In this document: positions 2,471 through 39,994 of the stretch, in pieces
Numbering within the stretch: the stretch's first letter is position 1
Layout of the letters: each line of letters opens with the position of its first letter
Sequence record: OQ870555.1
Reading direction: 5' to 3' (one strand)
DNA from: Escherichia phage PECP14
DNA: 64,000 nt
Translations under genes and position numbers: made by a program
Notes under the pieces: model-generated
The model's input: the letters and a program-made list of their open reading frames with translations, nothing else
Databases searched by the model: none
What the model was told of the DNA's origin: nothing

Positions 2471-3238
2471 TTATTCAGCAGCCGCAGCTTTTGCATCCAG
2501 TTTAGCACGCTTAGCGGCACCATCATAGTCCTTAGCAACCAGACCACGACGAGACAGCATAGATTTAACACCGCGCTCAGACTTACCAGTTTTCTCAGCG
2601 ATCTCAGCAACAGTCATGTTAGCCAGATCCAGACCTTCTAACAGATCTTCACGAGTTTTAGCACTTGAAGTTTCCTGTACCGGCATAGCAGCGATACGAC
2701 CTTCACGAAGCAGACTCAGAGCTTTACCACGGATCTGCTTAATATTGCGACCGAAGTGAGCAGCGATAGCTTCAATAGTAGCACCAGCAACAACCTGATT
2801 AACGAAATCAGTTTCTTCGTCAGGAGTGAAGGAACGAACAGCAGCAGCTTTTTCGGTTGGCTTAACAGAAGCAGTCATTTCCAGACTCAGGATCTTACCC
2901 TGTACCTGCTTAGCACCGAACTGACCACCAGCTACAGCAGCAGCGATTTCAGCGTAAGTATACTGACCAGCATGAGCGTTCAGGAAATCAACCAGTTCAG
3001 CTTCCTGCTCAGGAGTCCACGGGGATTTCTGTACTTCGTTTGCTTTCTGTACTTCGAAACCTTCTTTACGCAGCTTAGAGCCAACAGAGCGAGCGGTAAC
3101 GTCTTTGCCAGTCTCGGTAGCCAATTCAGCAGCGATAGCAGCTACTTGTTCTTGAGAGATTACAGCAACACCCAGAGCAGTGGCTTTTGCTTTCAGAGAC
3201 TCGGTTACACCTTCTACGTTCCAGTTCAGTTTAGACAT
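2471..3238 (-). CDS. hypothetical protein with three HTH-like repeats
   Basis: three repeated segments (YAEIAAAVAGG.., IEAIAAHFGRN.., VAEIAEKTGKS..); E. coli-optimal codon bias. Confidence 0.5.
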   Translation of the reverse strand: MSKLNWNVEGVTESLKAKATALGVAVISQEQVAAIAAELATETGKDVTARSVGSKLRKEGFEVQKANEVQKSPWTPEQEAELVDFLNAHAGQYTYAEIAAAVAGGQFGAKQVQGKILSLEMTASVKPTEKAAAVRSFTPDEETDFVNQVVAGATIEAIAAHFGRNIKQIRGKALSLLREGRIAAMPVQETSSAKTREDLLEGLDLANMTVAEIAEKTGKSERGVKSMLSRRGLVAKDYDGAAKRAKLDAKAAAAE

Positions 3239-4013
3239 TATTATTTTTCTCCAATAGTTCTTTAATCGACAGGATTTCTATCCCATTCGTTTCGGCTTTC
3301 TTATAAGATGAGGAAGAACGTTTTGATTCATCCTCACAGATTAGGTATTTGACGTCTTTGGTAACGGACTTCTTAACCGTATATCCTAGACTTTCTAAAT
3401 AGTTTGTTGCATCCGTTCGATTTGCAAAATCTTGCAAAGATCCGGTAATACAGACCGTGATTCCATTTGGCTGGGTAACTAAATCATCTGTAATGATGAT
3501 ATCCGCTTTAGCACCTCGAATACCTGTTGAGAATTTCCACGGTAATTCAATAACATCCTTGCCTTGTGGGGAATTTAGCCAGGTTTTGTAATTTTCTCCA
3601 GCCTTGCCGTCAGCCTTCACATCGTGGAAGCTAGTGCAATTTTGGGACAGTTTCTTTGCTGCAACCTCTCCAATAAGAGGAATTCCTAAAGAACCGAGAA
3701 CTGAACCAAAGTCAGTGTCTCCGCGAACCTTAGTATTTAACTCGCTAATCAATTTAGCGGCAACCTTGCTACCCACAGCTCCGACCAAATCTTCTTCGGT
3801 CAGGTAAAACAGTTCTGAGATCTTAGTCAGCTCCAGCTTCTCAATAGTTTTCGGGCCAAAGCCCTTTAACTTCATTTTTGTGCAGAAGTTCTCGATTAAC
3901 TTACTTGATTGCGCTGGACAGTTGGACTTATTCCTACAGAATAATTGCCCGTTGACAAGATCTAGCTTAGAACCACAAGAGGGACATTGTGTTGGAATTT
4001 CGATTTTCATCAA
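3231..4013 (-). CDS. NAD-dependent DNA ligase, C-terminal fragment (Zn-finger/HhH/BRCT)
   Basis: CPSCGSKL..C..C zinc finger, HhH-like GIPLIGEVAAKKL, BRCT-like tail. Confidence 0.7.
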   Translation of the reverse strand: MMKIEIPTQCPSCGSKLDLVNGQLFCRNKSNCPAQSSKLIENFCTKMKLKGFGPKTIEKLELTKISELFYLTEEDLVGAVGSKVAAKLISELNTKVRGDTDFGSVLGSLGIPLIGEVAAKKLSQNCTSFHDVKADGKAGENYKTWLNSPQGKDVIELPWKFSTGIRGAKADIIITDDLVTQPNGITVCITGSLQDFANRTDATNYLESLGYTVKKSVTKDVKYLICEDESKRSSSSYKKAETNGIEILSIKELLEKNNNV

Positions 4014-4212: not shown

Positions 4213-5184
4213 TTAGTCGTATACTCGCTCTACTATACAAGGGATTACACCACCAGCACGAATCACTCGAATCTGGCAACCGATCTCTAAATCGAGAGCG
4301 TTAATATAATCAACGTTATTAAGAGTTGCTTTAACGATTGTGGCATCATCAATAATCACCGGCTCGAAATAACCAACTGGAGTTACTTTACCAGAAGCCC
4401 CTACTTGCCATTCAACTTTAACAAGTGTGGTAATTTCGCCTTCTTCATCCTCTTTAATAGCAAATGCGCCACGAGGAAATTTATTAGTCCAACCTTCACG
4501 GAAGAATTTGTTGTTATCATTAATACGAACAACTTTACCATCTGTCGGAATCCATTTAAAGAAGGAACGAACATTAACAACTGTCAAGAAGTTCTCATTC
4601 TCTAGCCAAAGCATATCTTTTAAATAGGCTTCTGTAATACCGACTGTTTCCGCTGAACACTGGATACCATATGCAACGAAGATTAAACCACCTTCACCAA
4701 TACGTTGGATGAAATCATCGCTGTCTTTCAGGTTAATAGCACCTGAAGCGTAGTTACGTTTGTTCTCTACTTCTTTAGTAATGAGAACTTCACCAGTGAT
4801 TTGAGTTGGAACTTTTTGGGAAATAGTTTTAGGGATGTTCAGCATTTTAACATTATGCGTTACATCATTCCCTAGAATACCGTTACCACGAGTTAACGCT
4901 TGAACAAATTCACCATTAATATATAATAGAGAAATCGCACAACCATCTAACTTATCAGTTTCAACCTGACCTAATGGATTGAATGGAGCTTTATCACCGC
5001 GACCGTAATAGACTTTCTGCAAAGAATACATACGATACAAATGAGGAATATCACCTTTCGGTCCGATTTCTTCCTCCAGTGGGAATCTTTTAATCAGACG
5101 ATCATATTCTTCATCGGAAATAAGACTCATTCCCTGGTAGTACGCTTCTTGACAACGTTTGATAAAGTCTTTTACATTATTCAT
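4213..5184 (-). CDS. NAD-dependent DNA ligase, N-terminal adenylation fragment
   Basis: KLDGCAIS (KxDG adenylation motif), OB-fold region; separate ORF upstream of the C-terminal fragment. Confidence 0.7.
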   Translation of the reverse strand: MNNVKDFIKRCQEAYYQGMSLISDEEYDRLIKRFPLEEEIGPKGDIPHLYRMYSLQKVYYGRGDKAPFNPLGQVETDKLDGCAISLLYINGEFVQALTRGNGILGNDVTHNVKMLNIPKTISQKVPTQITGEVLITKEVENKRNYASGAINLKDSDDFIQRIGEGGLIFVAYGIQCSAETVGITEAYLKDMLWLENENFLTVVNVRSFFKWIPTDGKVVRINDNNKFFREGWTNKFPRGAFAIKEDEEGEITTLVKVEWQVGASGKVTPVGYFEPVIIDDATIVKATLNNVDYINALDLEIGCQIRVIRAGGVIPCIVERVYD

Positions 5185-12152: not shown

Positions 12153-12692
12153 TTATACCTTAAGTTTCTGAAGAGCCTTACACATTTCAAGATCTGGACT
12201 AAATTCCAGCATATAGCTGATAGCATTTAAATCTTGAAGGTTTATTCCAGTCCTGCCATTTACAATAACAGTAGGAAATTGGTACATCATAGCACCAGCA
12301 TCATCTAGGACGCACCAATGCTTGAGCTTATGTTTTTCTACGAAACGTAAGACAGAATTACCCCGAGATAAACCACCTCCAGTAAAATCTGTTGTACCAA
12401 GAAAACGATCGATCAAACCGAGTCCGGTCATAATCTGAACGTTCTCCATTTCATTTCGTACAGAAAACCATGAAGATACCCCAACAATCATTATTGGGGA
12501 TGGCTTAAGAAAGTTCTGAAAAGCCTGGAGTAATGGCTTGTAAACCCAATCACCACCAAAGAATAGCTTCTCACTATCTGGAGCATGATGGTGAGAGATG
12601 CTCGAATTGAGCACCCCATCAATATCCAGGAAAATCACAGGAGTATTACTTATTTCCACCAGTAGCATCCCACGTCCAGACTTTAACTTCAT
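12153..12692 (-). CDS. HAD-superfamily hydrolase/phosphatase-like
   Basis: motif I VIFLDIDGVLN near N-terminus. Confidence 0.45.
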   Translation of the reverse strand: MKLKSGRGMLLVEISNTPVIFLDIDGVLNSSISHHHAPDSEKLFFGGDWVYKPLLQAFQNFLKPSPIMIVGVSSWFSVRNEMENVQIMTGLGLIDRFLGTTDFTGGGLSRGNSVLRFVEKHKLKHWCVLDDAGAMMYQFPTVIVNGRTGINLQDLNAISYMLEFSPDLEMCKALQKLKV

Positions 12693-12831: not shown

Positions 12832-12994
12832 ATTCTCCCTCCTTAATAAGGAACTCTTTCCATTCTGCTGTATCCTCATAGATAACGCAGAAATCATCAC
12901 TCTTCCATGAGAAGTCATCAGTAGCAAATTCGAAACGGTAGCACCAACTACCGTCTGGCCATACTAAAAGATCACACATGCTTTTCTGGGACAT
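12812..12994 (-). CDS. hypothetical small protein
   Basis: internal Met start with GGAGGG SD; acidic C-terminus. Confidence 0.35.
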   Translation of the reverse strand: MSQKSMCDLLVWPDGSWCYRFEFATDDFSWKSDDFCVIYEDTAEWKEFLIKEGEYGEEDF

Positions 12995-13823
12995 AAATAT
13001 TTCCCTCCATAAAAGCTTCAACTTGATCAATAAAGTGTTTATTACCAAAAACTTCGGCAGCTCCAGCACGCCATACAGTAACACCACGTTTCTCATACTC
13101 AAGCTGTTCGTCATAACGAACTTGTGGGTTAACAACCATCATCTTAGTTCCACGACATACAGCAGGAAATAGCTCCCAGTTGAAGTCGATTACTTGGTTG
13201 CTACAACCTACTACAATAACCATATCATTGCTAGTAAGTGTATCAAACAGGTTAATCTGACCCATATACCACGGAGCCGTCTCACCAAAGAATGTTACGT
13301 TTGGTTTTACCCATTCGTAATCCTCAGGGGCAATCGCAGTATACCCAACATCTTCGATGATTTGGTTGCGACCCTGACGATAGATCACCTCTTTCAAGTA
13401 CCCGTGAGCGTGAATGATTTCATCACGAGGGATACCAGCACGTTCCAGAAGGTCATCAACGTTAGTAGTGAAGTTCTTCACGCTATCCTCACCATAACGC
13501 TGGAACCATTCTGCAATTCGCAGATGGGCAATGTTAGGCTCAACAGTCTGTAATTCCTGACGACGCATGTTGTAGAACTCATGAGTCTTGAGATACAGAT
13601 CGTTACCATCTTTATCAATGCCAGGGAAACGAGCACTGAAGTAGTTAGGATCATCTTCACCACAGAAGCGACGGAAGCCAGCTTCAAAGTTAGGCAAGCT
13701 ACATACTTCCTCTAGATCGTACTCATCCCACAAGGATTTCCCACTAGCAGTATCAGTACGGAAAGCACGAACACCACTATCTACACTCAAACCTGCACCA
13801 CTAACAACGATTAGTCTACGCAT
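12972..13823 (-). CDS. Sir2-like NAD-dependent deacylase/ADP-ribosyltransferase
   Basis: GAGLSVDSGVRAFR (Rossmann NAD motif), TTNVDDL (TQNID-like), catalytic HG. Confidence 0.65.
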   Translation of the reverse strand: MRRLIVVSGAGLSVDSGVRAFRTDTASGKSLWDEYDLEEVCSLPNFEAGFRRFCGEDDPNYFSARFPGIDKDGNDLYLKTHEFYNMRRQELQTVEPNIAHLRIAEWFQRYGEDSVKNFTTNVDDLLERAGIPRDEIIHAHGYLKEVIYRQGRNQIIEDVGYTAIAPEDYEWVKPNVTFFGETAPWYMGQINLFDTLTSNDMVIVVGCSNQVIDFNWELFPAVCRGTKMMVVNPQVRYDEQLEYEKRGVTVWRAGAAEVFGNKHFIDQVEAFMEGNIYVPEKHV

Positions 13824-30381: not shown

Positions 30382-30456
30382 CGGGGTGTAGTCTAAGGGA
30401 TAGGCAGGAGTCTTCTAAATTCCTTTATGCAGGTTCGAATCCTGTCACCTCGGCCA
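30382..30456 (+). tRNA. tRNA-Arg(TCT)
   Basis: hand-folded cloverleaf; AC loop CTTCTAA; T-arm GCAGG-TTCGAAT-CCTGT; CCA encoded. Confidence 0.6.
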
Positions 30457-30694
30457 ATTTTATTAACTGCTAGGAAAATAAAGTGAAAACACGATATATA
30501 GTAAAAGTAGTAGGTGAACATTCACAAGTAAATACCACCGATGTTACAGCGCTAGCATTTGAAGTAGTCTCCGGTATAGTCATATTTCATAACGGAGATA
30601 TCAAAGCTCCTGAATTTGCTGTGGATGCTAGCCTGTTTATTTCTGCAACTAAAGTAACTGTAGTAGCTAACTCTTCTAAATAATAAGGAAATAT

Positions 30695-31639
30695 ATGTTT
30701 ACTAAAAACACTAAAGAACTGACTTCCGATCAAAAAGTAATTCGTACTATTAAACGTTGGGGTGTTGGTGCTGTAGTTGGTCTTGGCGCTCTTATTCTGG
30801 CTCTCAATTCCTATACAGTTGTTCAGGACGGTACGGTTAAAACTCAGACTTTCCTGGGTAAAGTTAGTCCTAATCCTGTATTGCCGGGGTTCCATATTGT
30901 CAACCCATTCGCCTCTTTTGATACTTTTAGTACGAAAGATATTTCTATGAAACTGGATAAACTTCAGGTTCCTAGCCAGGATAAGTTTAAGTCTACAGTT
31001 GACATTACCGTTATGTTGCAGTTTGATGGTGCTAAAGCTCCTATGAACCGTGTTAACGCAGGTACTCAGGATCAAGCTCTGAACAAGTACGTTGAAGAGA
31101 AGATGCTGTCTACGATTCGTGAGTTTGGTAAGTCTGTACCAAAAGCACAAGATCTGTTCGACGCTAAGATTCAGGCTCAACTGCAAACCGCTATTCAGCA
31201 AGAAGTAGAAGAGTATGCGCGTCCTTATGGTTACACCGTTAAGCAAGTATTCCTTCAGGATATTACTCTGCCACCGGTAATCATGGAACAGGTACAGAAC
31301 ACCAAAGTTCGTGAAGAACAAGTTAACGCTGCAAAAGCTGAACTGGCTCGTGTTGAACAAGAAGCACAGCAGAAAGTTAAGCAAGCTGAGGCAGATCGTT
31401 CCGCTCGTGAAAACATGGCAGTAGCTAACGAACGTGACGCAGATGCTAAACTGTACGCAGCTAAGAAAGAAGCTGAAGCTAACGCCGCTCTGCAACGTAC
31501 CATTACTCCTGAAATGATTCGTTGGAAGCAGCTGGAAGTTGAAATGCTTCGTGCTGAAAAATACCAAGGGGGTGTACCACAGACTGTTGTCGGTACTGGC
31601 TACGATGGTCAAATGATCATGGATATGCGTAACAAGTAA
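30695..31639 (+). CDS. SPFH/band-7 (prohibitin/HflK-like) membrane protein
   Basis: N-terminal TM helix, SPFH core, long Ala/Glu/Gln coiled-coil tail; two terminators downstream. Confidence 0.65.
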   Translation: MFTKNTKELTSDQKVIRTIKRWGVGAVVGLGALILALNSYTVVQDGTVKTQTFLGKVSPNPVLPGFHIVNPFASFDTFSTKDISMKLDKLQVPSQDKFKSTVDITVMLQFDGAKAPMNRVNAGTQDQALNKYVEEKMLSTIREFGKSVPKAQDLFDAKIQAQLQTAIQQEVEEYARPYGYTVKQVFLQDITLPPVIMEQVQNTKVREEQVNAAKAELARVEQEAQQKVKQAEADRSARENMAVANERDADAKLYAAKKEAEANAALQRTITPEMIRWKQLEVEMLRAEKYQGGVPQTVVGTGYDGQMIMDMRNK

Positions 31640-31662
31640 TAGTTACACGTAATCTTCGAACC

Positions 31663-31698
31663 AAGCCCGCGTTTCCTTCGAGAGCGCGGGCTTTTCTG
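31663..31698 (+). terminator. intrinsic terminator after SPFH gene
   Basis: AGCCCGCG...CGCGGGCT stem + TTTTCTG. Confidence 0.6.
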
Positions 31699-31714
31699 TA
31701 TTTAAGGCAAAAGA

Positions 31715-31754
31715 AAAAGCCCCTTACCTTTCGGCAGGGGCTTTTGTTTTTTGG
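31715..31754 (+). terminator. second, possibly bidirectional terminator
   Basis: AAAAAGCCCCT...AGGGGCTTTTGTTTTTT at the convergence point of plus and minus genes. Confidence 0.6.
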
Positions 31755-31959
31755 TTTAGAACCATACTCTCTTGTTACAACAACCACTCATACGGGAGAC
31801 CAATCTTGACTGAAAATCTACTCTAGGGGGCAGGATAAGAGTAGGCTTAAAGGCAAACGGATTGAACACCGGTATTTGTGTAAACATTGCTGGAGAGCAA
31901 CAACGTGCTACAGGTATTGGGCAGCACGAAACAGATTTTCTGCAACACATAATTCCTCC

Positions 31960-32376
31960 TTAGGAGTTATTACCGCCATTTTGAGCTTTTGCAACTTGGC
32001 TTTGGCAGAAGCTATTAAACTTACCCATAAGTGCTACAAGCTGTTTCCCATCCTCTGTCTTTGCGAAGTCTTCGAAAAGGGCTAGTACTGCCTGTCCTTC
32101 CGCAGAAACCTGCGGTTGTTGGGTTTGTTGCTGAACTTGCTGCTGAGGCACCTGTTGCTGCATTTGTTGAGGCATTTGCGACTGCCCGCTCATTTGCTGC
32201 ATCATTTGCATAGGACTCACACTTCCAGGGTTTTGCTGGAGTTGCTGCTGCATCTGTTGCGCTTCTGCTAAACGCTGTTGCAACTGTTGTAGGTAAGGGT
32301 TATCCAGACCCGGAATGGGCTGCTGAGAGCCCATTGGTTGATTAAATCCGTTGTTCACAAAACCATATTTACTCAT
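31960..32376 (-). CDS. glutamine-rich low-complexity protein
   Basis: over 30% Gln with poly-Q(M/P) tracts; convergent with neighbouring plus-strand genes. Confidence 0.45.
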   Translation of the reverse strand: MSKYGFVNNGFNQPMGSQQPIPGLDNPYLQQLQQRLAEAQQMQQQLQQNPGSVSPMQMMQQMSGQSQMPQQMQQQVPQQQVQQQTQQPQVSAEGQAVLALFEDFAKTEDGKQLVALMGKFNSFCQSQVAKAQNGGNNS

Positions 32377-32398
32377 AATGGGCTCCTCCCCTTAAAGA

Positions 32399-33400
32399 TT
32401 AGGCTGGTACTTTAGCCTGTAGAGCTGCTAGAGTCTGAGTAATTGCACCCAGGCTTACAGCGATTTGATTGATTACCTGACCGTTTGCACCGCTACCTGC
32501 AGCGATTGCTTCACGCAGACGGCATTCATTCAGTTCGTCTTGGATACGCGCAGTAGTTACACCAGCAATCGCAGTCTGAAGTTCGCAGCAGCACTCAGCA
32601 AGCTGACGTTCGATAGCGTTCTGGTTAGCACACATCTGAGCCTGAACAGCGGCAAACTGGTTGTTAGTCTGAAGAGACTGCTGGAAAGCAATCTGGGCAG
32701 AGTCAAACTTGTCTTGTGCACGAGCGATCTGGTTAGCAGCGAAAGCTTGATCCATCTGGCGAGAAAGATCGAACTGACCCTGAATAACGTTACGAGTTTC
32801 CTGACAGATCTGGTTGGACAGGTTAGCACCAGTACCATACACAGTAGTCAGAATCTGTTGAGTGCTAGAAGCTTGAGCAGCACCTACACCATTAACAGCG
32901 CTCAGAACAGCACCAGTACCTTGATTCGCTTCGGTACGAGCAGTGTTGATTGCAGCTAGAATACTTGCAGTATCCTGGTTAGATAGGATAGCATCCACAG
33001 CAGTTCCCTCAGCGGCAACACCAGCACCACGTCCGAAACCACCGAAACCACCGAATCCGCCTGTTAATAGAGCACCAATCAGGATAGCTCCGAATAGACC
33101 CATACCTTCACCGCCGAAAGCACCATTTGCTACTGCTGGGTAACCACCCATCAGACCTGGGAAGCCGCTAGTGAATACGTTTACTGGTTCTTGCATTTTA
33201 TGTTTCCTATGTTTATGACAGCCCTCATGGTCGTCATCTTCATCATCTTCATCGTCATCATCGTGATCACGATGTTTCTTTTCGTAGGCCTTGACCTTCT
33301 CCCACTTATGTTTGTCTGATTCCTCATGACGTCTCAGTTCTGCTGCGACTTCACTGACGGTCTCAGGTTTCTTAGTTGCTTCTTCTGTCATTTTTGACAC
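32399..33400 (-). CDS. hypothetical protein: acidic/His-rich N-term, Gly-zipper segment, Ala/Gln-rich domain
   Basis: DDDDEDDEDDDHEGCHKHRKHK then GGFGGFGGFGRG; TTGACA-type promoter and AGGAGGTG SD upstream. Confidence 0.5.
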   Translation of the reverse strand: MSKMTEEATKKPETVSEVAAELRRHEESDKHKWEKVKAYEKKHRDHDDDDEDDEDDDHEGCHKHRKHKMQEPVNVFTSGFPGLMGGYPAVANGAFGGEGMGLFGAILIGALLTGGFGGFGGFGRGAGVAAEGTAVDAILSNQDTASILAAINTARTEANQGTGAVLSAVNGVGAAQASSTQQILTTVYGTGANLSNQICQETRNVIQGQFDLSRQMDQAFAANQIARAQDKFDSAQIAFQQSLQTNNQFAAVQAQMCANQNAIERQLAECCCELQTAIAGVTTARIQDELNECRLREAIAAGSGANGQVINQIAVSLGAITQTLAALQAKVPA

Positions 33401-33459
33401 CTCCTAGTATATAGAAAATGTGTGTCTCTTTGATCACTCATCTATAACATATACTTTAC

Positions 33460-33500
33460 ACTACCCCAGCGAAAATGTCAAGGGGTCTTTAAAAATTGCC
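33460..33500 (-). promoter_or_regulatory. leftward sigma70-like promoter for the convergent module
   Basis: minus strand CCTTGACATTTT...TAAAGT, then TAGGAGGTG SD before 33400 ATG; coordinates approximate. Confidence 0.4.
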
Positions 33501-33597
33501 CCCGGATTTTTAGTGGGATAACAATTTCTGGACCTCACCACTCACCTGCTACCCTTAAGTGCCCTGCGATTTTCCACTAAAAAGTTTAAAAATTCGA

Positions 33598-33626
33598 TTG
33601 CTTGAATGCTAAATTCTCTGTATAAT
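33598..33626 (+). promoter_or_regulatory. early promoter cassette
   Basis: TTGCTT-17-TATAAT + TTATAAATTTGAGAGAGGAA. Confidence 0.55.
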
Positions 33627-33656
33627 ATATTTATAAATTTGAGAGAGGAATCAAAT

Positions 33657-34712
33657 ATGATTAAGACTGGTCTAGTAATTGGTAAGTTCGCACCATTAAC
33701 GCGTGGTCATATTAACCTAATAAACACAGCAGCAACTATGTGTGAACGAGTTATTGTTGTAGTTAGTCATGATAATCGTTGGCTGGATAAGCAGAACACA
33801 CGTGATCAGGAAGTATTACAGTTAAAGAATCGACTTCGTTGGTTAGAACAAACTTACGCGGATATTGAGCACGTTTCGGTAGAGTACATTATTGAAGATG
33901 ATATTCCTGAATATCCGAATGGTTGGCCGGAATATGCTAGAATCCTTAATGAAAATTATGGACATTTGCCTGAGATCACCATTTTCTCTAGCGAACTAGA
34001 CTATGATGCAGAATATAAGAAATATCTGCCGAAGTTTGGTCATTATATTGTAGATTCTGATCGGACTCGTGTTCCAATCTCAGCTACAATGATTCGTAAT
34101 GATCTTATGAAGTATTGGGAGTTTCTTCCTAGCGTAGTTCGTAAAGATTACGTGCGTAAGGTTGTAATCATTGGGACTGAAAGCTCAGGCAAAACAACTT
34201 TAACAAAGTACCTTGCGAAATTATATAATACTTCGTGGGTAGAAGAATATGGTCGTACTTACTGCGAAGTTGATCTAGTTGGTAATGAAGAACTCCTGAC
34301 TAGCGAGGACTATAATAAAATTGCATTCAGGCACAAAGAGCTAGAGTTTGAGGCAGAACGTACTGCAAATAAGATCATGTTTGTAGACACAAATGCTTTC
34401 ATTACAGAGTTTTATCACAGACTTTACGAGCATCGTAAAAATCCGGTTGTAACAGCTATTGCTAAAGAAGAGCATTATGATTTAGTTATAGTTTTAGCAC
34501 CTACTGTTAAGTGGGTAGATGATGGTTTACGTATTAACTCCGATCGTTCAATTACTTCTGAACTGTTCGAGCAGATGAAGAAAGAATTTCCTAATCAGTT
34601 TCCAGAAGGGCGTACTGTATATATTGACTCCCCGGACTATAAGGTTCGTATGGACGAAGCAGTAAACGCAGTAGACTGGCTGATTCATCACTTTAACGTT
34701 GGAGAGTTTTAA
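33657..34712 (+). CDS. NadR-like NMN adenylyltransferase / ribosylnicotinamide kinase
   Basis: GKFAPLTRGH (HxGH nucleotidyltransferase) and GTESSGKTTL (Walker A kinase). Confidence 0.65.
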   Translation: MIKTGLVIGKFAPLTRGHINLINTAATMCERVIVVVSHDNRWLDKQNTRDQEVLQLKNRLRWLEQTYADIEHVSVEYIIEDDIPEYPNGWPEYARILNENYGHLPEITIFSSELDYDAEYKKYLPKFGHYIVDSDRTRVPISATMIRNDLMKYWEFLPSVVRKDYVRKVVIIGTESSGKTTLTKYLAKLYNTSWVEEYGRTYCEVDLVGNEELLTSEDYNKIAFRHKELEFEAERTANKIMFVDTNAFITEFYHRLYEHRKNPVVTAIAKEEHYDLVIVLAPTVKWVDDGLRINSDRSITSELFEQMKKEFPNQFPEGRTVYIDSPDYKVRMDEAVNAVDWLIHHFNVGEF

Positions 34713-34713
34713 T

Positions 34714-35391
34714 ATGACTAACTATCTTGTAAATGACTTTAAAAACTGGAAACCTTTGGAATATCTGTGGCTGTTTATAGCAGTCGCCTTTATTAGTTTA
34801 GCTAACTATAATGGTACAGCTCTAGATTGGGCTACTGCAATAACCAACGTGGTTTGTGTTATTCTGGTTGCAAAAGGACGTGTTTCCAACTATATTTGGG
34901 GCTTAGTTGGTGTTCTTACCTATGGTATTACAGCTTTAAACGCAGATCTTTATGGTAACGCTGCACTAAACCTGCTATACTACGTTCCTATGCAGTTTTA
35001 TGGAATGTACTTATGGCATAAAAATAAGCCAAGTAATCTGCCAGATGTTCCAACTAAGGTTCTGACTAAAGCCCAAGCTCTGCTGACTCTAGGGATTCTA
35101 GCAGTAGCCACGTTAGGGTATGGTAGTTTCTTAGCTACTACGGCTGATCCATTCCCAATGTTGGATGCATTTACTGCGGTAGGTAGTGTGATCGCTATGT
35201 GGCTTATGGTTAAGCAGTATGCCGAGCAGTGGCTGATCTGGATTGCTATTAACATTGGTACTGTATATATTTGGCTTGTAACTGCCCAGTCTACGGGTGC
35301 TTCTTATGCAATCCTAGCAATGTGGCTGGTGTTCTTAGGTAACTCTATTATGGGAGCCTATAAAGGCTACTTTGTAAGAGTTAACAAATAA
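34714..35391 (+). CDS. pnuC: PnuC-like nicotinamide riboside transporter
   Basis: polytopic membrane protein with PnuC-like W/Y-rich helices; directly follows NadR-like gene. Confidence 0.6.
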   Translation: MTNYLVNDFKNWKPLEYLWLFIAVAFISLANYNGTALDWATAITNVVCVILVAKGRVSNYIWGLVGVLTYGITALNADLYGNAALNLLYYVPMQFYGMYLWHKNKPSNLPDVPTKVLTKAQALLTLGILAVATLGYGSFLATTADPFPMLDAFTAVGSVIAMWLMVKQYAEQWLIWIAINIGTVYIWLVTAQSTGASYAILAMWLVFLGNSIMGAYKGYFVRVNK

Positions 35392-35396
35392 AGTAG

Positions 35397-35425
35397 TTAT
35401 AGCCCTCTAAGCGAGGGCTATTATA
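35397..35425 (+). terminator. hairpin terminator after pnuC
   Basis: ATAGCCCTC-TAAGC-GAGGGCTAT. Confidence 0.5.
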
Positions 35426-35438
35426 CAGAAATTTTCAC

Positions 35439-35467
35439 TTGCTTTATATAGAAAATTTCTGTATAAT
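35439..35467 (+). promoter_or_regulatory. early promoter cassette
   Basis: TTGCTT-17-TATAAT; near-identical leader to the 33598 copy. Confidence 0.55.
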
Positions 35468-35497
35468 ATATTTATAAATTTGAGAGAGGAATCAAAC

Positions 35498-35794
35498 ATG
35501 AAACACATTGTACTTGCATTGACTCTAGTATCTACTTCTGTATTTGCTGCTCCACAACAGGAACTTTGTCAAGTTCAAGTTTGTAATAAGCTAGAACGAT
35601 TTACTCTAGACATTTGGTCGCACATTAAAGATAATATGGGTGAACAGTGTTTTGATATTGTTCTGCCAAAAGAACAAGCTGTTCCTGGGGCTGTTCTCAG
35701 CTCAGAATCACGTTGGTGGCAGGGTTCTTCTATCAACCCAACTAAGAAGTCAGTGACACGTATCAAACAAGTATATCAGTGCAATGTTCAGTAA
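35498..35794 (+). CDS. small secreted Cys-containing protein
   Basis: signal peptide MKHIVLALTLVSTSVFAAP. Confidence 0.45.
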   Translation: MKHIVLALTLVSTSVFAAPQQELCQVQVCNKLERFTLDIWSHIKDNMGEQCFDIVLPKEQAVPGAVLSSESRWWQGSSINPTKKSVTRIKQVYQCNVQ

Positions 35795-35802
35795 AATTTC
35801 AC

Positions 35803-35831
35803 TTGCTTAATGCCGAAATTTTCTGTATAAT
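35803..35831 (+). promoter_or_regulatory. early promoter cassette preceding tRNA-Ser
   Basis: TTGCTT-17-TATAAT. Confidence 0.55.
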
Positions 35832-35845
35832 ATATTCATAAATTC

Positions 35846-35939
35846 GGAAGATTAACCCTAAAGGTAAGGGAGCTGTTTGCTAAACAGCCAGTAGCTGTGG
35901 AGACACGGTGTGCCAGTTCGAATCTGGCATCTTCCTCCA
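35846..35939 (+). tRNA. tRNA-Ser(GCT)
   Basis: acceptor GGAAGAT/ATCTTCC; AC loop TTGCTAA; long variable arm; follows promoter. Confidence 0.7.
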
Positions 35940-35944
35940 AATTT

Positions 35945-36022
35945 GGTTCTCAAGCTCATTTGGTATGAGCCGTCGCCTCATAAGCGAAAGGTAGGTAGGT
36001 TCGAATCCTCCGGGAGCCACCA
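35945..36022 (+). tRNA. tRNA-Met/Ile2(CAT)
   Basis: D-stem GCTC/GAGC; AC loop CTCATAA; T-loop TTCGAAT; CCA encoded. Confidence 0.55.
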
Positions 36023-36039
36023 ATTAACTAGGAGACTAT

Positions 36040-36225
36040 ATGTCTAGATTCTATGAAATGAAGAAAGCATTAGAAGAATGTCGGTGTAAGGATTGTCATG
36101 GTGGTGGTAGGCAGGATGATGCAGAACCTGGGGATATTTTCTGTAGAGAATGGGAATGTCCTACATGTAAAGGTACTGGTATCAACCCTGAATATGCAAT
36201 TTGTCTAGACATTGAGCGAGGCTAA
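36040..36225 (+). CDS. small Cys-rich (zinc-ribbon-like) protein
   Basis: CRCKDC...CREWECPTC. Confidence 0.4.
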   Translation: MSRFYEMKKALEECRCKDCHGGGRQDDAEPGDIFCREWECPTCKGTGINPEYAICLDIERG

Positions 36226-36565
36226 GATGGATATTTTTACTACTCCGGCAATAAACCTTTTAGGTGTTGGCTTGTTCCAAGCTACGGTGTATCGTACTGA
36301 TGATTCTACTGATGTGGTAACGTTCATCGTACCTGAGTTCTTCCTAGAAAAGTTCTTTGAAGAGTTTGAGCAGTTCCGTGAAGAACACAATGCTCATTCC
36401 GATATGGAAGATCTAGCAGCTATGTTCCCTGTGGTTTACGGCTATATCTTTGAAGGTAATGGCCTAGATCTTAATAAATCTGAACTCGTTGAACTTAATT
36501 GGGGCATCAATTTTGAAGTTGGCTCTCCATTCCCTCGATATTTCCAGGGTTTAGAGATTCGCTAA
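36212..36565 (+). CDS. hypothetical protein
   Basis: ORF. Confidence 0.45.
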   Translation: MSEAKMDIFTTPAINLLGVGLFQATVYRTDDSTDVVTFIVPEFFLEKFFEEFEQFREEHNAHSDMEDLAAMFPVVYGYIFEGNGLDLNKSELVELNWGINFEVGSPFPRYFQGLEIR

Positions 36566-36573
36566 GATTACAT

Positions 36574-36650
36574 GGGGGTGTAATCGAATTGGCATAGGTA
36601 CTGGACTTAAAATTCAGGTTTTGTGGGTTCGAATCCCACCACCCCTACCA
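36574..36650 (+). tRNA. tRNA, anticodon TAA (isotype uncertain)
   Basis: acceptor GGGGGTG/CACCCCT; T-arm GTGGG-TTCGAAT-CCCAC; AC loop CTTAAAA with short variable loop. Confidence 0.5.
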
Positions 36651-36665
36651 AATTAAGGAAATAAA

Positions 36666-36788
36666 ATGAAAGCTATTAAGAAAGCACTACGTAAATTTAT
36701 GTACTGTCGTTTTCATAGCATCAAGACTTCAACTAATGGTACGACTTATGATCGCTATGATCCTAAGTTTGGCTTACATTCTAAATAA
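36666..36788 (+). CDS. small hypothetical protein
   Basis: 40-codon ORF with AAGGAAA SD after a tRNA. Confidence 0.3.
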   Translation: MKAIKKALRKFMYCRFHSIKTSTNGTTYDRYDPKFGLHSK

Positions 36789-36801
36789 CTGGAGATAATA
36801 A

Positions 36802-37008
36802 ATGGCTAATCCTGAAATTACTGCACAGCGCTTTATGCTGAAAGGTATTATTGCTGAAGCAGGCATGACAGAAGAAGTTGCAGATTTTCAAAAGCAGTTC
36901 CTAAATATTCTCACTCAAGCCAAAGAGCTAGGAGAGAAAGAACATGGCGCGGCTATTATGGCAATCACATTGGTTGGGCTTGATCTGGCAGAAGAATCAG
37001 GAGTTTAA
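36802..37008 (+). CDS. hypothetical protein
   Basis: ORF. Confidence 0.4.
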   Translation: MANPEITAQRFMLKGIIAEAGMTEEVADFQKQFLNILTQAKELGEKEHGAAIMAITLVGLDLAEESGV

Positions 37009-37038
37009 CTCCTCCAAGCAGAAATTTTAAAAATGTAC

Positions 37039-37068
37039 TTGCTTTTTACTTAAGATTTCTGCTATAAT
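37039..37068 (+). promoter_or_regulatory. early promoter cassette
   Basis: TTGCTT-18-TATAAT. Confidence 0.5.
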
Positions 37069-37098
37069 AGTTATATAAATTGATGAAGGAGTTAACGA

Positions 37099-37374
37099 AT
37101 GTCAAAACGTGTTACTGCAACTGGTGTTGAAAGTGCTGTTTGTAAATCCTGGGGTGGCTGGGAAGGTGAGATTGAATGGCTTTATTTCTACGATGTAGAA
37201 CTTCTGCCGGAAGTCAAAGCTAAATGTGTGGAAGCTGGTATGGCTCCTGATGCAAAGGCTGATATCGAAATCACCATGACTAAGCTAGAAGGTCGTGTAA
37301 TTACGCTCAATGATGATTATGAAGAAGTGTTCGAGCTTCCATTCAAACTGAGTGTCACCCCTAGCTTCGAGTAA
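37099..37374 (+). CDS. hypothetical protein
   Basis: promoter cassette + AAGGAG SD. Confidence 0.45.
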   Translation: MSKRVTATGVESAVCKSWGGWEGEIEWLYFYDVELLPEVKAKCVEAGMAPDAKADIEITMTKLEGRVITLNDDYEEVFELPFKLSVTPSFE

Positions 37375-37410
37375 CTGATATAGCACTGAGCAAGTTCTTT
37401 AAAATTTGAC

Positions 37411-37439
37411 TTGCTCAGTCCTTCAAAACTTGATATAAT
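37411..37439 (+). promoter_or_regulatory. early promoter preceding tRNA cluster
   Basis: TTGACTTGCTC / TATAAT. Confidence 0.5.
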
Positions 37440-37503
37440 AGTTATCTAATTTGGAAAACATATTTAAAAGTGTTTAAACTAGTATTTGAATATTTCTAAA
37501 TAT

Positions 37504-37594
37504 GTTGGATTAGTATCGTAGAGGTAGCGAAGCAGACTGTAAATCTGCCGACTCGGAAGGGTCTCGGGTGGTTCGACTCCATCATCCAACACCA
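37504..37594 (+). tRNA. tRNA-Tyr(GTA)
   Basis: AC arm GCAGA-CTGTAAA-TCTGC; long variable arm. Confidence 0.6.
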
Positions 37595-37601
37595 AATTTA
37601 A

Positions 37602-37678
37602 GTCCTGTTAGACAAACTGGTAAAGTCACTACCCTTTCAAGGTAGGATTTGCGGGTTCGATCCCCGCACAGGACGCCA
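37602..37678 (+). tRNA. tRNA-Glu(TTC)
   Basis: acceptor GTCCTGT/ACAGGAC; AC loop CTTTCAA; T-arm GCGGG-TTCGATC-CCCGC. Confidence 0.7.
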
Positions 37679-37687
37679 AATTCTGCA

Positions 37688-37763
37688 TTCCTAGAGTGTT
37701 ACTGGACAGCATGTCGGTCTCCAAAACCGTACGGTCTAGGTTCGAGTCCTAGTAGGTTTGCCA
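37688..37763 (+). tRNA. tRNA-like, anticodon CCA (Trp?), non-canonical acceptor
   Basis: AC arm TCGGT-CTCCAAA-ACCGT and T-arm CTAGG-TTCGAGT-CCTAG are good but acceptor stem does not pair. Confidence 0.35.
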
Positions 37764-37769
37764 ATATTT

Positions 37770-37844
37770 GCACCTTTAGCTGAGATGGATTAGCGCTTGC
37801 CTGAAGAGCTTGAGAGGTTGGATCGTTACCAACGGGGTGCACCA
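37770..37844 (+). tRNA. tRNA-Phe(GAA)
   Basis: acceptor GCACCTT/GGGGTGC; AC loop CTGAAGA; T-arm GTTGG-ATCGTTA-CCAAC (atypical loop). Confidence 0.5.
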
Positions 37845-37846
37845 AT

Positions 37847-38134
37847 TTGAAGGAGATGCTGATGCATCCTGAAAACTTCTTTATTTACTGTGCGGATAAG
37901 TCACTGAAACGCAGAATTAACAAAGTCTATCATTATCGTGCTAGTCAACAGCCTTATGTTTATGCTTTTGATGGAGAAACCATTCCACTAGAGCAGTTGG
38001 CTTGTGATTACATGGTATTGAAGAACTTTGATGAGACAAAGATCTCAAGCGTTCATAATCGACAGAACCCATTAACGTGGAAGTATAAGAAGAAAAAGAA
38101 AGGCATCATATTTCTGAAAAATGTAGTTGCTTAA
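37847..38134 (+). CDS. hypothetical protein
   Basis: ORF after tRNA cluster. Confidence 0.4.
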   Translation: MKEMLMHPENFFIYCADKSLKRRINKVYHYRASQQPYVYAFDGETIPLEQLACDYMVLKNFDETKISSVHNRQNPLTWKYKKKKKGIIFLKNVVA

Positions 38135-38155
38135 CCGCTTAAAGTTCTGTATAAT
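38127..38155 (+). promoter_or_regulatory. early promoter cassette
   Basis: TTGCTT-17-TATAAT. Confidence 0.5.
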
Positions 38156-38184
38156 TATTACATAAATTGAACTGGAGAAGCAAC

Positions 38185-38409
38185 ATGACAGAACAAGAAT
38201 TGAAAGAACGTAAGCTGGTAATGCTTCGCTTACTAAACATTTTCTCTGGTATGGATGGTGGTATTGACTTCGTTAATCTACGTTGCTTTGTAGAAGAAGC
38301 AGAAGGTGAGGCTATCACTAGGATTCTTAAACATATGGGTTTGTTATTAGATGTTGCTAATGTGGCTACTCAATATAAGCTCGAAGATTTACCGGAGCGT
38401 GTTAAATGA
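38185..38409 (+). CDS. hypothetical protein
   Basis: promoter cassette + GGAGA SD. Confidence 0.4.
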   Translation: MTEQELKERKLVMLRLLNIFSGMDGGIDFVNLRCFVEEAEGEAITRILKHMGLLLDVANVATQYKLEDLPERVK

Positions 38410-38597
38410 AAATGTTAGTTAAATTTAAGTGTTGTGGTTCTGAACATATTTTCACTCGTTATAGAGAGTTTAAGATGTGTGAGTGTGGTAAGTCAGGCTA
38501 TGATGCTGGAGATGGCTATTATGCTAGATCTATAGGACATTATAAAGATCTAGAGTTTACTAATCTCGAAAAGCAAGATAAATCGACCGTTGGCTGA
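38406..38597 (+). CDS. small Cys-containing protein
   Basis: ORF overlapping previous stop. Confidence 0.4.
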   Translation: MKMLVKFKCCGSEHIFTRYREFKMCECGKSGYDAGDGYYARSIGHYKDLEFTNLEKQDKSTVG

Positions 38598-38659
38598 ATG
38601 GCTTAGGCGGAGGCCTGCAAAACCTCCTTATGTGAGTTCGAATCTCATGCGGTCGTCCA
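38584..38659 (+). tRNA. tRNA-Cys(GCA)
   Basis: acceptor CGACCGT/GCGGTCG; AC loop CTGCAAA; T-loop TTCGAAT. Confidence 0.6.
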
Positions 38660-38666
38660 AATTTTA

Positions 38667-38749
38667 GGGTCGTTAGCCAAGCGGTTTGGCGGTGGACTGT
38701 TAATCCATGTCGAAAGACAACGTAGGTTCGAATCCTACACGGCCCGCCA
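38667..38749 (+). tRNA. tRNA-Asn(GTT), extended variable region
   Basis: acceptor GGGTCGT/ACGGCCC; AC arm GTGGA-CTGTTAA-TCCAT; T-arm GTAGG-TTCGAAT-CCTAC. Confidence 0.55.
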
Positions 38750-38852
38750 TATTCTGTGTAGAGTTAAGTAAACCGGTAGCCAACCAGCTATCATTACTGA
38801 TATCGAATTCAGTCACAGATACCATTTTTCATTAACAACTGAGGAAATAGAT

Positions 38853-39038
38853 ATGACAACTCGTGCAATTGCTCGACTAGAAGCTGATCGTGATAATCTG
38901 ATTAATAATATTAAGGTTCGTGGTAATATTATTAAGGCTCTGAAAGCTGAACTTCTTGAAGAACTTCAAGGTCAAGTAGAGCGTCGTGAAGCTCTAAAAG
39001 AGGTTGAGGAAGCTATCGAAAAACTCAAAACTGAGTAA
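38853..39038 (+). CDS. small coiled-coil protein
   Basis: ORF with GAGGAAA SD. Confidence 0.4.
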   Translation: MTTRAIARLEADRDNLINNIKVRGNIIKALKAELLEELQGQVERREALKEVEEAIEKLKTE

Positions 39039-39047
39039 ATAAATTAT

Positions 39048-39124
39048 GCGATCGGGGCTGGCTTGGTAATGGTACTCCCCTGTCACGGGAGAGAATGTGG
39101 GTTCGAATCCCATCGGTCGCGCCA
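39048..39124 (+). tRNA. tRNA-Asp(GTC)
   Basis: AC arm CTCCC-CTGTCAC-GGGAG; T-arm GTGGG-TTCGAAT-CCCAT. Confidence 0.7.
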
Positions 39125-39138
39125 ATTTAGGCTATAGT

Positions 39139-39330
39139 ATGACACGCAAATATTTAGTTATTAAAGGTGAACATGCAGGACAAACTGTATACTCATTGAA
39201 ATTTCATGATTATGGTTTAGCCTCAGATGATACTCGATATACTGGAATAGAGCATACAAGTGTAACATTAGACGAAACAGGTGATTATCCTAGTTTTACT
39301 ATTCCTAAAGATTTCTTAAAAGAGATTTAA
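39139..39330 (+). CDS. hypothetical protein
   Basis: start moved downstream of tRNA-Asp. Confidence 0.4.
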   Translation: MTRKYLVIKGEHAGQTVYSLKFHDYGLASDDTRYTGIEHTSVTLDETGDYPSFTIPKDFLKEI

Positions 39331-39331
39331 T

Positions 39332-39408
39332 GCTTCCATAGCTCAACTGGTTAGAGCTACCGCCTCTTAAGCGGAGGGTTGAAGGTTCAAGTCCTTCTGG
39401 GAGTACCA
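39332..39408 (+). tRNA. tRNA-Lys(CTT)
   Basis: D-stem GCTC/GAGC; AC loop CTCTTAA; T-arm GAAGG-TTCAAGT-CCTTC. Confidence 0.6.
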
Positions 39409-39611: not shown

Positions 39612-39685
39612 GCGTTCGTAGTTAAAAGGTATAATTTTTGGTTGCCAACCAGAAGTTGAGGGTTCGATTCCCTCCGACCGCACCA
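39612..39685 (+). tRNA. tRNA-Gly(GCC)
   Basis: AC arm TTTGG-TTGCCAA-CCAGA; T-arm GAGGG-TTCGATT-CCCTC. Confidence 0.6.
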
Positions 39686-39962: not shown

Positions 39963-39994
39963 ATATTTTATAAAGTGAGTTAACAAAGAATATT

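What the first reader, a model, noticed from the sequence alone, without database searches (positions are those of the whole stretch)
33657..35391. NAD+ salvage pair (NadR-like enzyme + PnuC transporter) in a genome that also has an NAD-ligase and a Sir2 homolog
A NadR-like bifunctional enzyme (HxGH nucleotidyltransferase motif GKFAPLTRGH plus Walker-A kinase) is followed directly by a PnuC-like permease. The same window encodes an NAD-dependent ligase (3231-5184) and a Sir2-like protein (12972-13823). Together these suggest the phage manipulates the NAD+ pool, possibly to feed its ligase or to counter NAD-depleting host defences.
Basis: partly seen in the sequence, partly recalled or inferred. 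Interest (0 to 1): 0.65.

Follow-up and report, generated by a model that had tools for sequence, protein, structure and literature searches.

The report
Phage NadR–PnuC NAD salvage module
Two adjacent early genes of a T5-like phage encode an importer for the vitamin nicotinamide riboside and the enzyme that converts it to NAD+; the pair is real and intact, but it is already annotated, structurally solved and discussed in print as a possible phage route to refill NAD+.

Summary
nadR (33657-34712) and pnuC (34714-35391) pass curated profile cut-offs. All catalytic and substrate-site motifs are present, and dN/dS is about 0.02. The split NAD-dependent ligase and the Sir2 gene are also real.

The window is a T5-like Epseptimavirus, 96-98% identical to sequenced phages in which both genes are already named. 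PHROGs has a family for each gene. A 99%-identical protein is in the PDB (9x6f/9x6h). Osterman et al. 2024 and Iyer et al. 2022 already propose the phage NadR-PnuC operon as an untested NAD+ route. No experimental test was found.

New detail from this work:
- The enzyme lacks the regulator HTH domain and has TxGH in place of HxGH.
- The pair is an accessory cassette driven by a homolog of T5's mapped early promoter P15a.
- It is bracketed by an exact 37-bp promoter/leader repeat.
- It is absent from T5 itself and cleanly excised, repeat to repeat, in the close relative NG_S8.

T5 keeps the ligase and Sir2 without the pair, so "feeding the ligase" is not a requirement. The Sir2 gene sits beside an RNA-repair phosphatase, not with the salvage genes.

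Verdict: an ordinary, already known auxiliary metabolic module. A role against host defences remains plausible but untested.

The parts
33580..33656 (+). Early promoter and leader of the operon. The -35 is TTGCTT (33598-33603), followed by a 17-nt spacer and the -10 TATAAT (33621-33626). The ribosome-binding site GAGG is at 33645-33648. This block is homologous to T5's mapped promoter P15a.
   Evidence: Sequence. Alignment A1 is near-identical to the T5 and Lindwurm P15a region up to the ATG. T5 annotation. The simple consensus scan picked a different hexamer pair, so the -35 assignment is by eye.
33619..33655 (+). Copy 1 of an exact 37-bp direct repeat (promoter -10 through the ribosome-binding site).
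   Evidence: 2 exact copies in the window, 0 expected by chance.
33657..34712 (+). nadR-like gene: a bifunctional NMN adenylyltransferase (residues ~1-160) and ribosylnicotinamide kinase (residues ~165-351), with no HTH domain.
   Evidence: Profiles. PDB matches: 9x6f at 99% identity, 1lw7 at E = 4e-55. Motifs. AF2 model with pLDDT 92, TM 0.83 to 8x7f. dN/dS 0.017.
34714..35391 (+). pnuC: a nicotinamide riboside facilitator, translationally coupled to nadR.
   Evidence: Profiles. 4qtn at E = 9e-33, aligned over residues 12-225 of 244. WLIWIAIN, matching WxxW(x)3N, at residues 173-180; the motif is defined in PMC5749112. dN/dS 0.02.
35399..35421 (+). A 9-bp GC-rich hairpin just after pnuC. It is a likely terminator or RNA-end structure, but the U-tract is weak.
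   Evidence: -17.1 kcal/mol, z = -4.2. A 'terminator' feature is annotated here in phages Stitch and Sw2. The consensus scan did not call it.
35460..35496 (+). Copy 2 of the 37-bp repeat, lying in a second promoter/leader block (35434-35497). The period to copy 1 is 1841 bp, which equals nadR + pnuC + hairpin.
   Evidence: In phage NG_S8 the two copies are collapsed into one, with the cassette gone.
35498..35794 (+). A small ORF (98 aa) with a signal-peptide-like N-terminus and unknown function. It forms the second module of the variable block and is not part of the salvage pathway as far as can be told.
   Evidence: phrog_6894, function unknown. Absent from T5. About 195 T5-like records carry it, and homologs occur in jumbo phages.
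35793..35845 (+). Third copy of the promoter block, in front of tRNA-Ser. Homology with T5 resumes here.
4213..5184 (-). NAD-dependent DNA ligase subunit A (adenylation and OB domains). It consumes NAD+ and releases NMN. It is context only and is not genetically linked to the pair.
3231..4013 (-). NAD-dependent DNA ligase subunit B (HhH and BRCT domains).
12972..13823 (-). Sir2-like protein with intact sirtuin motifs. It is context only.
12153..12692 (-). HAD_SAK_2 phosphatase near Sir2. This places Sir2 in an RNA-repair-type neighbourhood.
   Evidence: Iyer et al. 2022.

Best explanation
This is an accessory, early-expressed, two-gene nicotinamide riboside (NR) salvage module.

1. Host RNA polymerase transcribes nadR-pnuC from a T5 P15a-type early promoter. 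This is inferred from homology to a mapped T5 promoter.
2. pnuC is translated by coupling to nadR (1-nt spacer).
3. PnuC lets NR diffuse across the inner membrane.
4. The kinase domain of NadR traps NR as NMN, and its adenylyltransferase domain converts NMN plus ATP to NAD+. This chemistry is established for the H. influenzae, S. enterica and L. lactis homologs. Here it is inferred from intact motifs, fold and a 99%-identical solved structure.
5. The enzyme has no HTH domain, so it cannot act as the NadR repressor.

The net effect is a phage-controlled top-up of NAD+ in the infected cell that does not depend on host gene expression. The adenylyltransferase domain can also re-adenylate NMN from any source, including NMN released by the phage ligase.

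The selective benefit is most likely buffering of NAD+ loss during infection. Host NADase defences are the most attractive but unproven source of that loss.
For: - Curated profile hits for both genes.
- NadR motifs are all present and conserved in 32 homologs: TRGH, ISATMIR, GTESSGKT, IMFVDTN and WVDDGLR.
- Model TM is 0.83 and 0.79 to solved NadR structures.
- PDB 9x6f/9x6h is 99% identical.
- PnuC has the WxxW(x)3N substrate motif, and gate Trp and Tyr residues align to 4qtn.
- dN/dS is about 0.02.
- The promoter and leader are homologous to T5 P15a up to the ATG.
- NadR and PnuC occur in almost the same phage records, 791 against 779, with the same genus breakdown. They are adjacent in T5-like, Vibrio, Bacillus and T4-like genomes.
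- The same reading is given in the literature.
Against: - No activity, transport or NAD+ measurement was found for this phage operon.
- TIGR01526, the equivalog-domain model, scores 272.6 bits, below its cut-off of 341.
- The hosts already have nadR and pnuC, so the added value is unclear.
- T5 and NG_S8 do without the pair.
- NR must come from outside the cell. NADase defences produce ADPR and nicotinamide, which NadR cannot use.
Confidence: 0.78

Rival explanations
1. The module is a dedicated counter-defence, a third 'NAD+ reconstitution pathway'. It exists specifically to rebuild NAD+ when Thoeris, SIR2-HerA, DSR or similar NADase systems fire. It uses imported NR, so it does not depend on the breakdown products.
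For: - Accessory, patchy distribution and a cassette-like architecture.
- Early expression signal.
- Presence in many unrelated phage lineages.
- Explicitly hypothesised by Osterman et al., including BASEL T5-like phages in their Fig. S3B, and by Iyer et al..
Against: - Untested.
- NadR cannot use ADPR or nicotinamide, so rescue would require external NR or NMN at sufficient flux while the NADase is active.
- No defence-related genes sit beside the cassette.
- The distribution largely follows genus (Epseptimavirus against Tequintavirus), so it could be lineage history.
Confidence: 0.35
2. One reading: the pair exists to feed the phage's own NAD-consuming enzymes (split LigA/LigB and Sir2), for example by re-adenylating the NMN released at each ligation.
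For: - The ligase and Sir2 are present and look intact.
- The NMNAT domain would convert the ligase product NMN to NAD+ in one step. This is inference from known chemistry.
Against: - T5 has ligA, ligB and Sir2 but no nadR or pnuC.
- NG_S8 lost the pair by repeat recombination.
- Only about 206 of roughly 450 T5-like records carry NadR.
- The genes are in separate transcription units 20-30 kb apart.
- Sir2 is paired with an RNA-repair HAD phosphatase.
- A transporter is not needed for NMN recycling.
Confidence: 0.12
3. The proteins act on a different substrate (another Pnu-family vitamin or a nucleoside analogue), or NadR acts as a regulator of host NAD genes.
For: - The Pnu family also contains thiamine and riboflavin transporters.
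- The first motif residue is Thr rather than His.
- Some GenBank records label the gene 'NadR transcriptional regulator'.
Against: - The PnuC equivalog model TIGR01528 is passed nearly three-fold.
- pnuC is tightly linked to nadR, an NR kinase.
- No HTH domain is present in this protein or in any of 31 homologs.
- Thr and His alternate at the first motif position within the subfamily, 25 against 7.
- The fold matches NadR structures bound to NAD or NR.
Confidence: 0.05

Closest known systems
Phage NadR-PnuC operon of T5-like phages (Epseptimavirus: EPS7, Stitch, Sw2 and the BASEL phage GreteKellenberger); PHROGs phrog_3462 and phrog_1880; PDB 9x6f/9x6h
   Same: It is the same genes. Nucleotide identity is 95-98% and protein identity 98-100%, with the same order, promoter and hairpin.
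   Different: Nothing of substance. The window is another isolate of this group.
PnuC/NadR nicotinamide riboside salvage of Haemophilus influenzae (NadR 1lw7; PnuC structure 4qtn from Neisseria mucosa)
   Same: - Two-domain NMNAT and RNK enzyme with all motifs.
- PnuC with the WxxW(x)3N motif and, like 4qtn, an aligned N-terminal extra helix.
- Expected metabolic trapping mechanism.
   Different: - Only about 30-37% identity.
- Phage-borne and early-promoter driven.
- TxGH in place of HxGH.
- The two genes are fused into one translationally coupled operon.
Enterobacterial trifunctional NadR (repressor + NMNAT + RNK) with nadA-pnuC
   Same: The enzymatic domains are homologous; NF005988 is passed.
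   Different: - No HTH domain (model positions 1-64 are absent).
- 35% identity to Salmonella NadR.
- The enterobacterial PnuC subfamily model NF011926 is failed, 67.8 bits against a cut-off of 335. This is therefore not a recent copy of the host genes.
- The nearest cellular relatives (57%) are HTH-less NadR proteins that include Candidatus Schmidhempelia.
Phage NAD+ reconstitution pathways NARP1 (Adps + Namat) and NARP2 (NadV + NMNAT), Osterman et al. 2024
   Same: A phage-encoded two-gene route ending in NAD+. The authors themselves proposed NadR-PnuC as a possible further member.
   Different: - The substrate is imported NR, not the ADPR and nicotinamide left by NADases.
- No homology to Adps, Namat or NadV.
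- A counter-defence role has not been demonstrated.

Membership tests
NadR-type bifunctional NMN adenylyltransferase / ribosylnicotinamide kinase | Full-length curated profile score above cut-off | tested here: met
   NF005988 scores 254.9 bits against a cut-off of 201, covering model positions 65-407 of 411. phrog_3462 E = 3e-153.
NadR-type bifunctional NMN adenylyltransferase / ribosylnicotinamide kinase | TIGR01526 nadR_NMN_Atrans equivalog-domain cut-off | tested here: not met
   The score is 272.6 bits against a cut-off of 341.15. The protein is a divergent subfamily, not a close ortholog of the seed proteins.
NadR-type bifunctional NMN adenylyltransferase / ribosylnicotinamide kinase | Nucleotidyltransferase (H/T)xGH and ISxTxxR motifs in the N-terminal domain | tested here: met
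   GKFAPLTRGH is at residues 9-18, with Thr at the first position. Across 32 homologs the count is T 25 and H 7. ISATMIR is at residues 141-147. That Thr is an accepted variant, as in PPAT and eukaryotic NMNAT, rests on my own knowledge.
NadR-type bifunctional NMN adenylyltransferase / ribosylnicotinamide kinase | Kinase-domain Walker A, Walker B Asp and lid region | tested here: met
   GTESSGKT at residues 173-180, IMFVDTN at 240-246, and WVDDGLR identical to H. influenzae NadR. The motifs are as described in PMC7221760.
NadR-type bifunctional NMN adenylyltransferase / ribosylnicotinamide kinase | Two-domain NadR fold | tested here: met
   The AF2 model has pLDDT 92.3. TM is 0.83 to 8x7f and 0.79 to 1lw7. 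9x6f is 99% identical.
NadR-type bifunctional NMN adenylyltransferase / ribosylnicotinamide kinase | NR kinase and NMN adenylyltransferase activity | not testable with these tools
   No assay data were found.
Trifunctional NadR repressor (enterobacterial type) | N-terminal helix-turn-helix DNA-binding domain | tested here: not met
   The protein starts at model position 65. No homolog has an N-terminal extension longer than 17 aa.
PnuC nicotinamide riboside transporter (Pnu family) | Curated profile cut-offs | tested here: met
   PF04973 scores 148 bits (cut-off 27.3). TIGR01528 scores 121 bits (cut-off 42.45).
PnuC nicotinamide riboside transporter (Pnu family) | WxxW(x)3D/N ligand-binding motif in TM6, and gate Trp at the ends of TM3 and TM7 | tested here: met
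   WLIWIAIN is at residues 173-180. YGMYLW and TVYIW align to the 4qtn gate tryptophans.
PnuC nicotinamide riboside transporter (Pnu family) | Seven-helix core | tested here: met
   The alignment spans 4qtn residues 12-225 of 244. Hydropathy shows 7 clear hydrophobic segments, plus the aligned TM3. This is a crude hydropathy test only.
PnuC nicotinamide riboside transporter (Pnu family) | NR transport | not testable with these tools
   Specificity is inferred from the equivalog model and the linkage to nadR.
Enterobacterial PnuC subfamily (host-type) | NF011926 cut-off | tested here: not met
   The score is 67.8 bits against a cut-off of 335.
Phage NAD+ reconstitution pathways (NARP1/NARP2) | Rebuilds NAD+ from NADase products (ADPR and/or nicotinamide) and rescues the phage from NAD-depleting defence | not tested
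   No Adps, Namat or NadV was seen among the annotated or profiled ORFs of the window span, though many small ORFs were not profiled. Rescue from defence needs an experiment.

The most novel reading that the evidence does not exclude
The nadR-pnuC cassette is a genuine third phage NAD+ reconstitution route. It draws on external nicotinamide riboside, so it works whatever chemistry a host NADase uses, including systems that evade NARP1. The repeated promoter/leader blocks of the T5 tRNA region act as plug-in points that let T5-like phages gain and lose such early accessory cassettes by homologous recombination.
Probability: 0.3. Interest if true: 0.55.

Novelty: already known. Interest (0 to 1): 0.2.

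Why it matters
If the module does rescue phages from NAD+-depleting immunity, it would add a substrate-independent route to the two pathways shown so far. It would also make phage success depend on vitamin B3 availability in the environment, which is relevant to phage therapy with T5-like Salmonella and E. coli phages. That question is already posed in the literature and is directly testable with BASEL phages. This finding adds no new element to it beyond the cassette architecture and the natural empty-site variant.

Tried and rejected
1. I looked for an experimental paper on the phage operon or on PDB 9x6f/9x6h and found none. The searches covered 'NARP3', the PDB codes and NadR/PnuC/phage combinations. 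9x6f is absent from the Foldseek PDB copy that runs to 2026-04-08, so the deposit appears to be more recent.

2. I looked for an NAD riboswitch or pnuC-motif RNA in the leader. Rfam at E <= 1 finds only the two downstream tRNAs.

3. I hypothesised that the pair strictly replaces T5's small Toprim gene (T5.076). This is rejected. chee130_1/saus132, S147 and bombadil carry the Toprim gene downstream of the small ORF, and chee/saus also carry nadR-pnuC. The slot is a modular array of cassettes.

4. I hypothesised a recent capture from the host. This is rejected. Identity to Salmonella NadR is 35%, and the enterobacterial PnuC model is failed.

5. I looked for further NAD genes (NadV, Nudix, macro, ART) and found none among the annotated genes of T5 and GreteKellenberger over the window span, or among 29 profiled ORFs.

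6. The consensus promoter/terminator scan was uninformative. Counts were at the chance level, and it missed the P15a-type promoter and the hairpin.

Full report
**What is there**

The window is a T5-like phage. It has 28 tRNA genes between 30.4 and 45.0 kb, a split NAD-dependent ligase, and a DnaB-like helicase, NrdD, NrdAB, Thy and Frd. It is 96-98% identical in nucleotides to Epseptimavirus genomes such as Sepoy, JNwz02, Stitch and the BASEL phage GreteKellenberger.

At the stated coordinates there are two co-directional ORFs.

ORF 33657-34712 (351 aa) is a NadR-type enzyme.
- It passes NCBIfam's NadR model NF005988 (254.9 bits, cut-off 201). The match starts at model position 65, so the HTH repressor domain is missing.
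- Pfam gives CTP_transf_like and AAA_28.
- It falls below the stricter TIGR01526 cut-off (272.6 against 341), so it is a divergent subfamily.

ORF 34714-35391 (225 aa) is a PnuC transporter. PF04973 gives E = 3e-43, and TIGR01528 scores 121 bits against a cut-off of 42.

The ligase (LigA 4213-5184, LigB 3231-4013) and the Sir2 gene (12972-13823) are confirmed by Pfam.

**Are the proteins intact?**

NadR:
- The motifs present are GKFAPLTRGH (9-18), ISATMIR (141-147), Walker A GTESSGKT (173-180), IMFVDTN (240-246), and EYGR and WVDDGLR identical to H. influenzae NadR.
- In an alignment with 31 homologs of 43-87% identity these motifs are conserved. Thr and His alternate at the first motif position (25 against 7), and no member has room for an HTH domain.
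- An AlphaFold model (pLDDT 92.3) superposes on solved NadR structures, with TM 0.83 to 8x7f and 0.79 to 1lw7.

PnuC:
- It aligns over almost the whole of the N. mucosa structure 4qtn.
- It has the TM6 ligand motif WxxW(x)3N (WLIWIAIN, 173-180) and the gate tryptophans.

Against GreteKellenberger, nadR has 57 nucleotide differences but 3 amino-acid differences, and pnuC has 15 and 0. dN/dS is about 0.02. Both genes are under strong purifying selection.

**Operon anatomy**

- The region 33395-33656 aligns almost base for base with the T5 and Lindwurm intergenic region that carries the mapped promoters P12 and P15a, right up to the ATG. It has a perfect TATAAT (33621-33626) 17 nt after TTGCTT, and a GAGG ribosome-binding site.
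- The upstream in-frame ATG at 33606 lies 5' of the -10 box, so 33657 is the real start, as in GenBank.
- nadR ends in TAA at 34710-34712. pnuC starts at 34714, with GGAG inside the end of nadR, which implies translational coupling.
- A 9-bp GC-rich hairpin follows pnuC (35399-35421; -17.1 kcal/mol; z = -4.2). It is annotated as a terminator in Stitch and Sw2.
- No riboswitch-like RNA is present.

**Accessory cassette**

- An exact 37-bp block running from the -10 box to the ribosome-binding site occurs at 33619-33655 and again at 35460-35496. The second copy lies in front of a 98-aa ORF with a signal-peptide-like N-terminus. A third, diverged copy precedes tRNA-Ser.
- Homology with T5 stops at 33660 and resumes at about 35793-35817.
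- T5 carries only a small Toprim gene (T5.076) behind P15a. It has no homolog of nadR, pnuC or the small ORF in 30-75 kb. The window in turn has no T5.076 homolog.
- The modules are not strictly exclusive. chee130_1/saus132 carry nadR, pnuC, the small ORF and the Toprim gene in tandem.
- Among T5-like records at 80% identity or more, about 206 have NadR, 208 have PnuC, 195 have the small ORF and 272 have the Toprim gene. Roughly 450 records share the flanks.
- Phage NG_S8 is 97.6% identical in the flanks. Its P15a leader is fused directly to the small ORF's ATG. This is the exact product of recombination between the two 37-bp repeats, and it removes nadR, pnuC and the hairpin.

The pair is therefore a discrete, dispensable cassette.

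**Origin and spread**

- Outside the T5-like group the best phage NadR matches are Klebsiella jumbo phage FBKp24 (61%), ICP1 (46%) and V5/Mydo-like, Bacillus, Enterococcus and Lactobacillus phages (29-38%). Salmonella's own NadR is 35% identical.
- PnuC hits almost the same records: 779 against 791, with the same genus counts.
- The two genes are adjacent in Stitch, in Vibrio phage D371, in Bacillus phage PBC2 (reverse order) and in a T4-like metagenomic contig. They lie 2 kb apart in Mydo.
- The nearest cellular proteins (57%) are HTH-less NadR proteins on 2.4-2.6 Mb chromosomes, with a cluster member named Candidatus Schmidhempelia. pnuC is not adjacent there.
- The module is an old, widely shared phage auxiliary gene pair, not a recent host capture.

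**What is already known**

- Both genes are named in many GenBank records.
- Each has its own PHROG, in the category 'moron, auxiliary metabolic gene and host takeover'.
- PDB entries 9x6f and 9x6h hold a protein with 4 differences in 351 residues.
- Iyer et al. 2022 list NadR among phage NAD+-synthesis domains.
- Osterman et al. 2024 state that phage NadR genes usually sit in an operon with PnuC. They say this may be another NAD+ pathway, and that the BASEL phages carrying it (their Fig. S3B) were not examined.
- A 2024 jumbo-phage survey says the same of pnuC-nadR clusters.
- I found no experimental test.

**Mechanism and purpose**

The chemistry is NR import by facilitated diffusion, trapping as NMN, and adenylation to NAD+. 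It is established for the bacterial homologs and inferred here.

- T5 and NG_S8 keep those genes without the pair.
- The genes are 20-30 kb away on the other strand.
- Sir2's neighbour is a HAD_SAK_2 RNA-repair phosphatase. This is the arrangement Iyer et al. assign to RNA repair.

A counter-defence role fits the accessory distribution and early expression. It faces the objection that NadR cannot use ADPR or nicotinamide and needs external NR. I therefore commit to 'phage-controlled NR-to-NAD+ top-up' as the mechanism (confidence about 0.78). I rate the dedicated counter-defence purpose at about 0.35 and the ligase-feeding purpose at about 0.12.

**Verdict**

The finding is a correct reading of an already known and annotated auxiliary module. 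Interest is low. The only additions are the TxGH/HTH-less subfamily description, the P15a-driven repeat-bounded cassette, and the natural empty site.

Noticed in passing
33580-33656, 35434-35497, 35793-35845 (+): Three copies of a T5 P15a/P15b-type promoter-leader block lie within 2.3 kb, and two of them share an exact 37-bp core. They delimit gene modules: nadR-pnuC, a small secreted ORF, and then the tRNAs. They coincide with the homology breakpoints against T5 and with the deletion junction in NG_S8. This suggests that promoter repeats act as recombination points for early accessory cassettes.
   Followed up: partly
35498-35794 (+): A 98-aa ORF with a signal-peptide-like N-terminus (MKHIVLALTLVSTSVFA/AP) and four Cys. 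It belongs to phrog_6894 (function unknown). It is absent from T5 and present in about 195 T5-like records. Homologs of 52-62% identity occur in Aeromonas, Erwinia, Klebsiella and Edwardsiella jumbo phages.
   Followed up: partly
12153-13823 (-): The Sir2-like gene (motifs intact, with no obvious zinc-binding Cys tetrad) lies about 280 bp from a HAD_SAK_2 'Swiss-army-knife RNA repair' phosphatase. In the T5 RefSeq record the HAD gene (T5.105) is mislabelled 'Sir2'. Two tandem DUF7415 paralogs follow at 11317-12150.
   Followed up: partly
3231-5184 (-): The NAD-dependent ligase is split into an adenylation/OB subunit and an HhH/BRCT subunit by a 199-bp spacer. In T5 this spacer carries two mapped promoters (P-K 28a and 28b).
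   Followed up: no
31960-33400 (-): Two conserved proteins of unknown function are transcribed divergently from nadR (T5.077 and T5.078 homologs). One is a 333-aa protein with an Asp/Glu/His-rich N-terminus, a Gly-rich hydrophobic stretch and a long Gln/Ala-rich C-terminus. The other is a 138-aa Gln-rich protein. Neither has a Pfam hit. Both are deleted in NG_S8.
   Followed up: no
30695-31639 (+): An SPFH/Band-7 (stomatin/prohibitin-like) membrane protein. It is annotated 'lipoprotein' or 'membrane protease' in T5. NG_S8 has an internal deletion in it.
   Followed up: no
30382-45022 (+): An array of 28 tRNA genes interspersed with small ORFs, including a 61-aa CxxC zinc-ribbon protein annotated 'anti-termination protein Q-like' (36040-36225). 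Relatives carry homing endonuclease insertions at varying positions in this array.
   Followed up: no
L004 (CP050253.1): The closest cellular NadR relatives (57% identity) are HTH-less 349-aa proteins on small (2.4-2.6 Mb) chromosomes, including Candidatus Schmidhempelia. NCBI nevertheless names them 'multifunctional transcriptional regulator', which is probably an over-annotation.
   Followed up: partly
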